Origin: Zootoca vivipara
Lineage: Eukaryota
Direction of reading: 5' to 3'
Assembly (NCBI RefSeq): GCF_963506605.1
Contig: NC_083277.1
Location: 95,046,001 to 95,110,000, forward strand
DNA: 64,000 nucleotides
A program made the position numbers. Shown here piece after piece: positions 50,901 to 53,819 of this stretch; positions within the stretch are counted from its first letter, which is position 1, and each line of letters begins with the position of its first letter.

Positions 50901-53819
50901 ACCAGAGTTCACCTCTCCTTTCAAGGAGGTGAGGCCCAGAAAAAAGGTGTGCAAGCCCCTATAAATAAACATTGTCCCATCTCTTAGCCAAAGACTAAAA
51001 GCATCATACACACATCACAGAAAGATGTGGTCTACTACAGAAATTTGAGGGTGTGGCTTCTCTCCAGGATATCTGGTGTTTTACTGATTGCATTACCTGG
51101 GCAATCTTGCCATTCTTTTGAAATGGTTAGTACTTTGGTTTTTGCAGCCAGTTCACAGGCCCACCCTATTCATACACAAATGTGCCCTTAAGACAGGATT
51201 AGTAGGCAAAGAGTACTCCTGAAAATATTTGGGGTTATTAAGAGTCAAGATGGCCTCAGGAATTGCTCTCCCGTACTATTTCAGACATGTAGTTTATATA
51301 TTTATATGTGTGTTTACCTTGTGCATTTATGAATATTTATTCTCAGAATTGTTATGTCTAAATAAAAATATTGCACCAGTCACTTCTGTATCACTTTATG
51401 AGGTTCTAAAGAAGTAACATACGCAAGAGAGAGGAACAACACATACAAAAGTACCTGTTCCAAAGAGAATACAGTCTTAACTTTCAGCAGTCTGGGAAAC
51501 GACAGAAAGACCAGAAAGTAGAGATAGAAGCAAAGCATGAATGCGAGCAATTGCAAAGATTCGTTTCAGTTGGGGGTGCAGACTAAGGGGTCGAGCTCAC
51601 AGAAGAGGGGAGTATTTAGAAGGCCTGGGAACCAATTCCAGGTGTAATGGGCAGCAAGGGAGCCATAATAGGAGGGGAACCCCAAGGGTCATTTATTCCA
51701 ACCCCCTGCAAAGCAGTACGAGGAGAACAGCCAGACCAGGCATCCCCAAACTGCGGCCCTCCAGATTTTTGGCCTACAACTCCCATGATCCCTAGCTAAC
51801 AGGACCAGTGGTCGGGGATGATGGGTATTGTAGTCCAAAACATCTGGAGGGCCGAAGTTTGGGGATGCCTGAGCCAGACTCTGGGGTAGCAAGGATAAAA
51901 ACCCAACCCTCCACCCTCCGTCGCACGCCCAAGCTCCGTGCCCAAGCTCACCTTCCCTCGTACAGGAAGTCCCGCCCCTTGACGGGACTTCCCATGTTTC
52001 CTTGCGGGCCCAGCTCCTATAAAGCCTCGCGCTACAACGGCGCCTGCTGCTGCTACTTCTTTATTTCGCGCAGCCCAGCCTGCACGTGCGCGCTCTTTCT
52101 CTCTTTCTCTCTCCGCCCCCCACCCTTCTCCTCCTCTCGCTCGGCTTTCCTGTCCTCCCTGCCTTATCCGCATCCGGTCCCCGGTGTAGCGCGGCCGGAA
52201 GTTTAGGCCCCGGGAGCCGGAGGGAGCCGCCATCATGGGCGACAAAATGGATATGTCTCTGGACGACATTATCAAGCTGAACCGGAGCCAGCGGGGCGGC
52301 GGCGGCCGAGCGGGCGGCGGCCGAGGCCGCGGAAGGGGAGCTGCGGGTCGAGGCGGCGGAGCCGGGCGAGGCGGAGCTGGGCGGGCAGGCGGGGGCGGCC
52401 CCGTCCGGAACAGAGGCGCCCTGTCCCGGGGAGGCGGCAGGAACAGGCCTGCGCCGTACAGCCGGGTAGGTCCCTGGGCGAGCGGGCGCGGACGGAGCCC
52501 CACCTTTACCCGGGTTGGAACTGGGCTCCGGCCACTTGTTTCATGAACTTTCTTGGGGAATCAGGTGGTTCGGGACTTGTTCTGGGCTCTTTGGGGGAGC
52601 GTCAAGGGGGGTCTCCCCACGCGGAGATAAAGAGGGTTGGCGGGAGAAGGTGGAGTTGCTTCGGGTTCCTGGCGCGCGTAGGCCCAGTTCGAGCGCTTGT
52701 TGACGGCAACCGGGCGAGGAAATTAAGGGGATTTCCCTCCCCCTCCGCCTCCGGTTTGAGCAGAAATGCATAGCAATGGGACCGCCGTTTATGTGGGACG
52801 CTTCGTTGTAATGATCGGGTTTTCTCTCTTGTTGCAGCCAAAGCAACTCCCTGAAAAGTGGCAACACGATCTCTTCGAGAGTGGCTTCGGTGCTGGGGCT
52901 GGTGTCGAGACAGGCGGGAAGCTGCTTGTCTCCAATCTGGATTTTGGAGTATCGGATGCAGATATACAGGTACTTTGTCCTTTGTCTTTAATAAGAGGGA
53001 GCCAATAGGAGTGGATAGTTGTAGCTGGTCGTTTAGTTCATTTTAGAGTTTCTTCATTTTACTCATTTGTAGTTTCCTGTTGCTATCCTACATTTCCCCT
53101 GTGTAATGTACTAACTTCTCCCTGATCCATTACTACATGTCCCCACCCTTTTTCAACAGCAAGTTTTCAGAAAAGAGCAGTTACAGGACAAAAAGTAATT
53201 GCCCTTAAACCGCCCCGCCCCCCAATAGTTTGGGATGGCATGTAGCTTCAGTTAGCATATTCTGGTGCTCCTGTTTTGAGTGCAGTACATATAAAAGCAT
53301 TTATGAAATTGAAGACACCTGAGCACTGTCTTGGAGAAAGGTGCCTCTTGATTGACGAGAGACCTCAATCAATGCAATAAACTGATTGCATTACCTGGGC
53401 AATCTTGCCATTCTTTTGAAATGGTTAGTACTTTGGTTTTTGCAGCCAGTTCACAGGCCCACCCTATTCATACACAAATGTGCCCTTAAGACAGGATTAG
53501 TAGGCAAAGAGTACTCCTGAAAATATTTGGGGTTATTAAGAGTCAAGATGCCCTCAGGAATTGCTCTCCCGTACTATTTCAGACATGTAGTCTGAAGGGT
53601 TTGTATTGCATAAAGGATGATAAATATACTTAAGTTCTGGAAGTAATTTTAAGCAGAAAAGGAACAAAGTCCAAGTGATGAGGCTACAATAAAAAGCAAA
53701 ATGTCATGGAGAACAGAAAGGTCTGCTGCTCTATTGTTTGGCCCATCTATTATTAATGTTTAGCAAGAACCTCTTCCCGTGTCCTAGCATATGTGAGATC
53801 TTGCTTTCTTGCTTTCTAG

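What the first reader, a model, noticed from the sequence alone, without database searches (positions are those of the whole stretch)
51083..53591. 211-bp near-identical direct duplication bracketing the ANAPC11/ALYREF bidirectional promoter
Seen: 51083-51293 (inferred ANAPC11 intron 1) and 53381-53591 (ALYREF intron 2) match at 210 of 211 positions, same orientation, 2298 bp apart, with no TIRs, poly-A or evident TSD and no resemblance to the TEs I recognise. Inference: a very recent templated insertion or local duplication. Recombination between the copies would delete the shared promoter plus ALYREF exons 1-2, inactivating two core housekeeping genes at once. Each pre-mRNA carries the segment in the opposite sense, so the two nascent transcripts could base-pair over 211 nt.
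Basis: partly seen in the sequence, partly recalled or inferred. Interest (0 to 1): 0.65.

Follow-up and report, generated by a model that had tools for sequence, protein, structure and literature searches.

The report
Small local duplication flanking ANAPC11/ALYREF promoter
A 211-base piece of intron DNA sits in two almost identical copies either side of the promoter shared by two housekeeping genes in a lizard or snake genome, and it looks like an ordinary by-product of DNA break repair rather than a new kind of element.

Summary
Window 51083-51293 and 53381-53591 match at 210 of 211 positions on the same strand. The borders are sharp, the flanks are unrelated, and there is no third copy in the 64 kb.

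The window comes from a squamate reptile, not a human. ALYREF (+ strand) and ANAPC11 (- strand) were confirmed exon by exon. Copy 2 lies in ALYREF intron 2. Copy 1 lies between the CpG island and the ATG exon of ANAPC11, so it is probably in intron 1, but no transcript shows this.

The segment has none of these features: terminal inverted repeats, target-site duplication beyond chance, poly-A/T, tRNA-like head, Rfam match, unusual fold, open frame.

Its length (211 bp), spacing (2.3 kb) and bare ends fit the "repair-mediated duplications" described in vertebrates (PMC2671141). That study found 824 in human, with mean length 162 bp and most less than 3 kb from their source.

But the longest uninterrupted identity is 170 bp, below published thresholds for efficient recombination, and nothing indicates a function.

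Genome-wide copy number, the ancestral copy and read support could not be tested. Interest is low.

The parts
51083..51293 (+). Copy 1 of the 211-bp segment. It lies about 660 nt inside the putative ANAPC11 intron 1, where it is antisense to ANAPC11.
   Evidence: 210/211 identity to copy 2. It lies between the CpG island and the ANAPC11 ATG exon.
53381..53591 (+). Copy 2 of the 211-bp segment, inside ALYREF intron 2, in the sense of ALYREF.
   Evidence: The intron borders were read.
51900..52800 (.). CpG island, taken to be the shared divergent promoter. GC is 0.58-0.82 and CpG observed/expected is 0.74-1.08 from 52000 to 52799.
51946..51951 (-). Donor-like site (AAG|gtgagc on the - strand) that could end a non-coding ANAPC11 exon 1. 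This is inferred only.
   Evidence: Read; no transcript evidence.
49170..49313 (-). ANAPC11 exon holding the ATG (49278-49276). A strong splice acceptor lies 36 nt upstream of the ATG.
   Evidence: Pfam zf-ANAPC11 E = 3.9e-07 on the 38-aa translation
48939..49084 (-). ANAPC11 last coding exon, including the stop codon.
   Evidence: Pfam zf-ANAPC11 E = 1.4e-25
52235..52465 (+). ALYREF exon 1, coding part (ATG at 52235).
   Evidence: Best named matches are THO complex subunit 4 of Notechis scutatus (95%) and Sceloporus undulatus (94%).
52838..52969 (+). ALYREF exon 2.
   Evidence: Splice sites read. The frame continues from exon 1. There is no Pfam hit on this exon alone.
52970..53819 (+). ALYREF intron 2 (850 nt), of which copy 2 makes up 211 nt.
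53820..53967 (+). ALYREF exon 3 (part of the RRM domain).
   Evidence: Pfam RRM_1 E = 1.1e-08
54607..54778 (+). ALYREF exon 5 (C-terminal FoP-type motif region).
   Evidence: Pfam FoP_duplication E = 4e-11

Best explanation
This is a young, non-functional local duplication of the 'repair-mediated duplication' type.

Proposed event: a double-strand break in one of the two introns was repaired by copying, or capturing, a 211-bp stretch from the other intron about 2.1 kb away on the same chromosome. The result is a dispersed direct repeat with blunt borders and none of the marks of transposition.

Shown: the two copies, their borders, the absence of transposon or RNA-gene hallmarks, the absence of other copies in 64 kb, and the gene context.

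Inferred: the break-repair mechanism, the youth of the event, and neutrality. Youth rests on 1 difference in 211, K = 0.0047 with Poisson 95% interval 0.0001-0.026. With a recalled, unchecked vertebrate neutral rate near 1e-9 per site per year, that is of the order of a few million years or less.

Which copy is the source is not resolved.
For: - Identity is 210/211 with sharp borders and unrelated flanks.
- Only two copies exist in 64 kb by blastn and nhmmer.
- If two copies fell at random in the window, they would lie within 2298 bp in the same orientation with probability 0.035.
- Other interspersed repeats in this window reach at most 96% identity over about 90 nt, or 98% over 56 nt.
- No terminal inverted repeat: local score 6 against a shuffle mean of 5.7, and half of 500 shuffles do as well.
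- No target-site duplication beyond chance. The best shared words are a 6-mer (copy 1) and a 5-mer (copy 2). Among 19,899 random placements, 15.5% show a 6-mer or longer and 50% a 5-mer or longer.
- No A or T run of 5 or more at either end.
- No tRNA-like gene.
- None of the 10 Rfam matches at E <= 1 in 49000-56000 touches either copy.
- Fold z-scores are +0.20 to +1.21, no better than shuffles.
- All six reading frames contain stops.
- The flanks of both copies are unique in the window next to the junctions.
- Fit to the published class (PMC2671141, sections read): of 1,136 human candidate events, 824 had the source within 5 kb and 753 within 3 kb. Proximal events had mean length 162 bp, median 147 and maximum 619. 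None of the 39 proximal events inspected had a poly-A/T tract. Table 2 of the paper lists 295 acceptors and 278 donors in introns. Such events were also found in chicken (6) and zebrafish (80).
Against: - Copy number in the rest of the genome is unknown, because no eukaryotic genome collection was available. A low-copy mobile family cannot be excluded.
- The defining junction marks of repair (microhomology, filler, small deletion) can only be read against an empty orthologous site, which I could not obtain.
- No microhomology is visible outside the repeat at any junction.
- Copy 1 sits directly after TTTT and begins with A. That is the site preference quoted for LINE-mediated insertions (PMC5110952, section 9), and it hints at a reverse-transcription route instead.
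- No read-level support for the assembly was available.
Confidence: 0.55

Rival explanations
1. The two copies are members of a young dispersed repeat family. This would be an uncharacterised non-autonomous mobile element that inserts without obvious inverted ends, target duplication or tail, and both copies landed in open chromatin beside a CpG-island promoter.
For: - The window is rich in interspersed repeats. One search found 15 direct families and 21 inverted pairs, some at 94-98% identity, so mobile elements have been active fairly recently.
- The two copies have exactly the same ends, as units of a family would.
- The base just outside each end cannot be told apart from host sequence.
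- The literature search listing included transposon groups without target-site duplications (PMC4122938, title and abstract start only).
Against: - There is no third copy, not even a diverged one, in 64 kb.
- Two random insertions would lie this close and co-oriented with probability 0.035.
- Identity of 99.5% is above every other dispersed pair in the window.
- There are no TIRs, TSD, tail or tRNA-like head.
- Read as an LTR pair, the ends are not TG...CA, the outer flanks share no duplication, and the 'internal' part is the host promoter with ALYREF exons 1-2.
Confidence: 0.2
2. The duplication was RNA-templated. A fragment of intronic or antisense RNA from one locus was reverse-transcribed and inserted at the other. 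This could have happened by LINE machinery at a TTTT/A nick, or as a cDNA patch at a break (class 1-like or class 2 templated sequence insertion).
For: - The left junction of copy 1 reads TTTT|A, which is the preferred LINE-1 site quoted in PMC5110952 section 9.
- A 6-mer (GTGTTT) ends one base before copy 1 and recurs 17 nt after it, beyond an AT-rich stretch that could be filler.
- Both loci are transcribed regions, and LINE-derived sequence lies 430 nt away.
- Class 2 insertions have no TSD and no poly-A.
Against: - No poly-A tract and no polyadenylation signal are placed as class 1 requires.
- The 6-mer is offset from the junction, and 15.5% of random placements do as well.
- The TTTT/A match was noticed after the fact.
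- In PMC2671141, none of the 39 proximal events inspected carried retrotransposition marks. Those marks were seen only in interchromosomal events.
Confidence: 0.12
3. One of the copies does not exist in the animal and is an assembly or polishing artefact.
For: - The stretch between the copies reaches 82% GC. Sequence of that kind is hard to assemble (general knowledge, not tested here).
- Two other near-perfect local repeats lie within 1.1 kb of copy 1.
- No reads could be inspected.
Against: - There is no N run near the copies. The only one is at 29596-29753.
- The copies differ by a substitution, not an indel.
- The sequence between them is unique and carries the promoter and exons 1-2 in the right order and frame.
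- A false copy would have to be inserted cleanly inside an otherwise continuous intron.
Confidence: 0.06
4. The duplication is kept by selection. It would be either a duplicated regulatory module, or a means of pairing the two nascent transcripts so as to couple ANAPC11 and ALYREF expression.
For: - The two pre-mRNAs would carry complementary 211-nt stretches within roughly 0.7-1.4 kb of start sites that are, by inference, only 100-200 bp apart. The computed duplex energy is -405.5 kcal/mol, against -47.2 and -50.2 for each strand folded alone.
- A 7-mer motif (ATTGCAT or its complement) occurs in both flanks of copy 2 and at the start of the copy. Only 0.09% of 39,751 random placements show such a pattern. 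This test was post hoc.
Against: - No conservation data are available.
- Near identity is what recency alone predicts.
- The segment has no structure signal and no RNA-family match.
- Introns are short-lived.
- The same putative ANAPC11 intron already holds an intramolecular 249-nt inverted pair with a computed energy of -530.7 kcal/mol, which would dominate any double-stranded-RNA response.
Confidence: 0.04

Closest known systems
[quoted passage not shown]
   Same: It is a short duplication (211 bp; the class has mean 162 and maximum 619). The source lies within 3 kb on the same chromosome and is not tandem. There is no poly-A/T. It is mostly intronic, and only two copies were seen.
   Different: - The class was defined by insertions that interrupt a known transposon, and was checked against an empty site in a related species. 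Here neither flank is a recognisable repeat and no sister genome was available, so the junction marks and the direction are unknown.
- No squamate was among the species surveyed. A word search of the paper finds 0 occurrences of 'lizard' or 'squamate'.
Class 2 templated sequence insertion polymorphisms (Onozawa and Aplan 2016, PMC5110952; abstract and section 9 read)
   Same: A stretch templated from elsewhere is inserted with no target-site duplication, no poly-A and no cryptic poly-A signal, and is read as a patch in a repaired break.
   Different: Those insertions are described as coming from distant regions and from RNA. Here the source is 2.1 kb away, and a DNA template is at least as likely.
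Low-copy-repeat or direct-repeat mediated deletion (non-allelic homologous recombination, single-strand annealing)
   Same: Direct repeats bracket a unique segment. A crossover or annealing between them would delete one copy and the 2087 bp between them.
   Different: - The repeat is far shorter than segmental duplications, defined as >1 kb with >90% identity in PMC2671141 section 14.
- Its longest perfect tract, 170 bp, is below the quoted minimal efficient processing segments.
- For annealing, 50 bp was insufficient and 500-2,000 bp was needed for maximum efficiency in Drosophila (PMC9836020, abstract).
Intronic inverted-repeat double-stranded RNA, as formed by paired inverted SINEs or LINEs (recalled general knowledge; no paper read here)
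   Same: Complementary intronic stretches of a few hundred nucleotides could form long duplex RNA.
   Different: Here the complementarity is between two different transcripts, not within one. The classical intramolecular case is the neighbouring pair at 50026-50655, not the reported repeat.

Membership tests
Repair-mediated duplication (PMC2671141) | Inserted segment of at least 50 bp found at only one other place in the genome | tested here: inconclusive
   The segment is 211 bp, and exactly two copies occur in the 64 kb window by blastn and nhmmer. The rest of the genome could not be searched.
Repair-mediated duplication (PMC2671141) | Donor and acceptor on the same chromosome, less than 5 kb apart and more than 50 bp apart (not tandem) | tested here: met
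   2298 bp start to start, with 2087 bp between the copies.
Repair-mediated duplication (PMC2671141) | Length in the range of proximal events (mean 162, median 147, maximum 619 bp) | tested here: met
   211 bp; range.
Repair-mediated duplication (PMC2671141) | No poly-A/T tract of 5 or more at an end of the insertion | tested here: met
   The flanks and ends printed show a longest run of TTTT, before copy 1.
Repair-mediated duplication (PMC2671141) | Junction marks of break repair (microhomology 2-9 nt, filler, small deletion) read against the empty site | not testable with these tools
   This needs the orthologous empty site of a related species or an interrupted repeat consensus. Neither flank matches a repeat in the window.
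DNA transposon / MITE | Terminal inverted repeats and a target-site duplication | tested here: not met
   TIR score is 6 against a shuffle mean of 5.7. The best flank words are a 6-mer and a 5-mer, at chance level. As a positive control, the element at 7026-7116 / 39468-39558 shows clear inverted ends.
SINE / LINE-mediated retrocopy (including class 1 TSIP, PMC5110952) | tRNA-like or other pol III head; A-rich or simple-repeat tail; TSD of at least 5 bp at both junctions; TTTT/A site | tested here: not met
   ARAGORN finds 0 genes, there is no tail, and no junction-adjacent TSD. Only the TTTT/A site is present, at copy 1.
LTR retroelement (the two copies read as LTRs) | TG...CA ends, a 4-6 bp duplication of the outer flanks, and an internal retroelement sequence | tested here: not met
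   The ends read ACTG...TAGT. The outer flanks are unrelated. The internal part is the CpG island plus ALYREF exons 1-2.
Helitron | 5' TC and 3' CTRR ends, a 3' hairpin, and insertion between A and T (features recalled, not taken from a call) | tested here: not met
   Read by eye. Neither strand has TC...CTRR ends, although both copies could be read as lying between a host A and T. No separate hairpin scan of the 3' end was run.
Segmental duplication | [quoted passage not shown] | tested here: not met
   Only 211 bp are shared; the flanks are unrelated.
Structured RNA gene (any Rfam 15 family) | Match to a covariance model, or a fold better than shuffles | tested here: not met
   None of the 10 matches at E <= 1 in 49000-56000 overlaps either copy. 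Fold z-scores are +0.20 to +1.21.

The most novel reading that the evidence does not exclude
The evidence does not exclude two bolder readings.

First, the pair could be maintained because the complementary intronic stretches of the two divergent nascent transcripts pair in trans beside their shared promoter. That would couple or dampen expression of ANAPC11 and ALYREF through double-stranded RNA.

Second, the 211-bp unit could be the first sighting of a very young mobile element that inserts near open promoters and leaves no inverted ends, target duplication or tail.
Probability: 0.04. Interest if true: 0.55.

Novelty: new member of a known kind. Interest (0 to 1): 0.2.

Why it matters
If the best reading holds, this is one more example, in a squamate, of a mutational process already catalogued by the hundreds in primates and at lower density in other vertebrates. 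Its value is mainly for annotation. It marks a probable recent structural change, possibly polymorphic, inside two essential genes, and a place where short-read mapping and assembly may go wrong. Its position on both sides of a shared promoter makes it a tidy natural test case. It could show whether 200-bp direct repeats produce deletions, and whether trans-complementary introns are edited or processed. Nothing here suggests that either happens.

Tried and rejected
- **LTR-like structure (repeat - internal - repeat).** Rejected: no TG...CA ends, no duplication of the outer flanks, and the interior is the host promoter and exons.
- **Helitron ends.** Not present on either strand, by eye; the defining motifs are recalled.
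- **A larger, older duplication with a gene-converted core.** Rejected: blastn at word size 7 finds no other similarity between the two neighbourhoods.
- **Tandem or internal repetition of the segment.** TRF finds nothing in 50983-51393.
- **Foreign or vector-like contamination.** The 211 bp has no match in the plasmid or phage collections at E <= 1e-3.
- **Small RNA gene.** No Rfam, tRNA or structure signal.
- **Telling donor from acceptor from the junctions.** The hints conflict and are weak.
  - An 8-bp inverted repeat spans the left junction of copy 2. This occurs at 1.2% of random positions, and four junctions were tested.
  - A 7-mer is shared by both flanks and the start of copy 2. This occurs at 0.09% of random placements, but the test was post hoc.
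  - Copy 1 has TTTT/A and an offset 6-mer, which 15.5% of random placements match.
  - I could not build a repair model that uses these motifs as primers in the observed orientation.
- **Literature on this locus.** No paper in the searched library holds ANAPC11, ALYREF and 'bidirectional promoter' together.
- **Literature on the class in reptiles.** A search joining 'repair-mediated duplication' with reptile terms listed 12 of 2,831 papers, and none of the 12 contained that phrase. This does not show that nothing is in print.
- **Not possible here.** Genome-wide copy number, a sister-species empty site, reads and RNA data could not be examined. The supplementary tables of PMC2671141 (per-event lists, orientation) were not seen and may bear on how common co-oriented events are.
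Full report
**Observation**

Window 51083-51293 and 53381-53591 lie on the same strand, 2298 bp start to start. They are identical at 210 of 211 positions. The single difference is G at 51253 against C at 53551.

Identity ends abruptly. The 60 bases on the left match at 14 of 60 and those on the right at 21 of 60.

Blastn with word size 7 and nhmmer with all filters off find no further copy in the 64 kb. The next best matches are 28 nt at 82% (E = 0.15) and an nhmmer hit at E = 0.44. 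Among 15 direct-repeat families and 21 inverted pairs in the whole window, this is the longest direct repeat and the most identical. The only run of N is at 29596-29753, far from the finding. I left it alone.

**Organism and genes**

I searched the gene models exon by exon and left out the step of joining exons into a spliced protein.

Pfam gives the following:
- zf-ANAPC11 for the two coding exons on the - strand, E = 3.9e-07 and 1.4e-25.
- RRM_1 (E = 1.1e-08) and FoP_duplication (E = 4e-11) for two + strand exons.

The first coding exon on the + strand (ATG at 52235) is most like THO complex subunit 4 (ALYREF) of Notechis scutatus (95%) and Sceloporus undulatus (94%). It is 71% identical to Sphenodon and 52-58% to the primate entries listed (198 proteins at E <= 1e-5 among 8000 scored candidates).

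I therefore take the window for a squamate reptile and not for human sequence. The unnamed records in that listing were not fetched or used.

**Gene anatomy**

| Gene | Feature | Coordinates |
|---|---|---|
| ALYREF (+) | exon 1, coding part | 52235-52465 |
| ALYREF (+) | exon 2 | 52838-52969 |
| ALYREF (+) | intron 2 | 52970-53819 |
| ALYREF (+) | exon 3 | 53820-53967 |
| ALYREF (+) | exon 4 | 54239-54302 |
| ALYREF (+) | exon 5 | 54607-54778 |
| ANAPC11 (-) | ATG exon | 49313-49170 |
| ANAPC11 (-) | last coding exon | 49084-48939 |

Copy 2 is plainly inside ALYREF intron 2.

The ATG exon of ANAPC11 is preceded, 36 nt before the ATG, by a strong pyrimidine tract and AG. The only CpG island nearby is at about 51900-52800. 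A donor-like AAG|gtgagc lies on the - strand at 51951. So copy 1 is probably about 660 nt inside ANAPC11 intron 1. This rests on splice-site anatomy, and on my recollection of the human gene layout, not on transcripts.

**What the segment is not**

- **No terminal inverted repeat.** The best local score is 6, against a shuffle mean of 5.7.
- **No target-site duplication beyond chance.** The best shared words are a 6-mer and a 5-mer. Among 19,899 random placements, 15.5% do as well as the 6-mer and 50% as well as the 5-mer.
- **No A or T run of 5 or more at the ends**.
- **No tRNA-like gene**.
- **No Rfam match.** None of the 10 matches at E <= 1 in 49000-56000 overlaps either copy, and all 10 are below their gathering scores.
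- **No unusual fold.** Z-scores are +0.20 to +1.21.
- **No internal tandem repeat and no open frame.** All six frames carry stops.
- **Not an LTR pair.** The ends and outer flanks do not fit, and the interior is the host promoter.
- **No match in the plasmid or phage collections**.
- **Flanks next to the junctions are unique in the window**. The 'interrupted repeat' trick for rebuilding an empty site therefore cannot be used.

**What it most likely is**

Length, spacing and bare ends match the repair-mediated duplications of Pace et al. (PMC2671141). I read the abstract, sections 6, 7, 11 and 12, and passages of other sections. Their main figures are:
- Of 1,136 human candidates, 824 had the source within 5 kb and 753 within 3 kb.
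- Proximal events averaged 162 bp, with a maximum of 619 bp.
- None of the 39 proximal events inspected had a poly-A/T tract.
- 51 of the 68 breakpoints examined showed deletions, filler or microhomology.
- Most events lay in introns.
- Events were also found in chicken (6) and zebrafish (80).

Within this window, two randomly placed copies would be this close and co-oriented with probability 0.035. No other dispersed repeat here exceeds 96-98% identity. Both points favour a local copying event over two independent insertions.

One difference in 211 gives K = 0.0047, with a Poisson 95% interval of 0.0001-0.026. With a recalled, unchecked neutral rate near 1e-9 per site per year, that means roughly a few million years or less. 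Gene conversion could make the pair look younger than it is.

**Direction and fine mechanism are open**

Three junction observations are recorded, all weak or post hoc:
- **Left junction of copy 2.** An 8-bp inverted repeat spans it. This is seen at 1.2% of random positions, and four junctions were tested.
- **Motif around copy 2.** The 7-mer ATTGCAT or its complement occurs in both flanks of copy 2 and at the start of the copy. This is seen at 0.09% of 39,751 random placements.
- **Left junction of copy 1.** Copy 1 follows TTTT and begins with A. That is the site preference quoted for LINE-mediated templated insertions (PMC5110952, section 9). An offset 6-mer that could be a duplication lies beyond an AT-rich filler.

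These hints point in different directions. They keep an RNA-templated route alive as a rival.

The deletion geometry is right. A crossover or annealing between the copies would remove 2298 bp, including the CpG island, ALYREF coding exons 1-2 and the putative ANAPC11 first exon.

The homology is short, however. The perfect tracts are 170 and 40 bp. A review passage quotes more than 200 bp (mouse) and 337-456 bp (human) as minimal efficient processing segments (PMC3966225). In Drosophila, single-strand annealing failed at 50 bp and needed 500-2,000 bp for full efficiency (PMC9836020, abstract). I therefore expect a low rate. Any germline deletion would be a recessive lethal that selection removes.

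The antisense geometry also holds if copy 1 is transcribed. The computed intermolecular duplex is -405.5 kcal/mol, against about -47 and -50 for the strands folded alone. This is an energy calculation, not evidence of pairing in cells. The same putative intron also contains a 249-nt inverted pair (6 mismatches) with a computed fold of -530.7 kcal/mol.

**Comparison and novelty**

The feature works like, and most probably is, a repair-mediated duplication. Four of its five defining features were tested. Three were met, and one (two copies only) was met in the window but not testable genome-wide. The fifth, the junction marks, needs an empty site.

It fails the tests for transposon classes, for a segmental duplication and for an RNA gene.

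I found no paper on this locus. I found none on this class in reptiles among the 12 of 2,831 papers listed, which is not an exhaustive check.

**Verdict**

The feature is real in the assembly and ordinary in kind: a new member of a known kind. Interest is 0.2.

Still untested are genome-wide copy number, sister-species empty sites, read support and RNA evidence.

Noticed in passing
window 50026-50274 and 50407-50655: This is an inverted pair of 249 nt with 6 mismatches and 132 nt between the arms, inside the putative ANAPC11 intron 1. Each arm carries an open frame that, from memory, resembles the C-terminal tail of an RTE/BovB-type LINE ORF2. Pfam finds nothing in either frame. Both arms stop at the same element position. 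The computed RNA fold of the 630 nt is -530.7 kcal/mol.
   Followed up: partly
window 50678-50794: This is a near-perfect palindrome with 58-nt arms, 98% complementary, and 1 nt between them. It draws several miRNA-family matches, all below their gathering scores, for example MIR2646 at 65.8 bits against 245. The word GGGGTATATTTT also occurs next to the tail of the neighbouring inverted pair.
   Followed up: no
window 51737-51871, related copy 55921-55974: This is a hairpin-like element with 34-nt arms, 94% complementary, and a 67-nt loop, at the edge of the CpG island and within about 100-200 bp of the putative ANAPC11 first exon. It has a sub-threshold match to mir-5408 (33 bits against a gathering score of 90). 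The motif belongs to a repeat with 7 partial copies in the window.
   Followed up: no
window 53372-53378, 53385-53391, 53605-53611 (and 51087-51093): The 7-mer ATTGCAT or its complement sits in both flanks of copy 2 and at the start of each copy. The whole window holds only 19 such sites. The pattern occurs at 0.09% of random placements, but it was tested after I noticed it. It remains unexplained.
   Followed up: partly
window 51218-51097 (- strand) and the same stretch of copy 2, 53516-53395: On the - strand the segment carries an acceptor-like TTTTCAG| and a donor-like CAG|GTAAT that bound a 122-nt exon-like interval. In copy 1 this is in the sense of ANAPC11. This is motif resemblance only (read).
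   Followed up: no
window 7026-7116 and 39468-39558: Two copies of a 91-nt element with clear inverted ends, 96% identical. This looks like a MITE and served as a positive control for the hallmark tests.
   Followed up: no
window 29596-29753: This is the only run of N in the window (158 bases).
   Followed up: no
window about 59800-60500: This is a second GC-rich stretch, seen as long GC-rich open frames on both strands, downstream of ALYREF. Some bird annotations fuse ALYREF with Rho GDP-dissociation inhibitor 1, so this may be the promoter of the next gene. That is an inference and was not tested.
   Followed up: no
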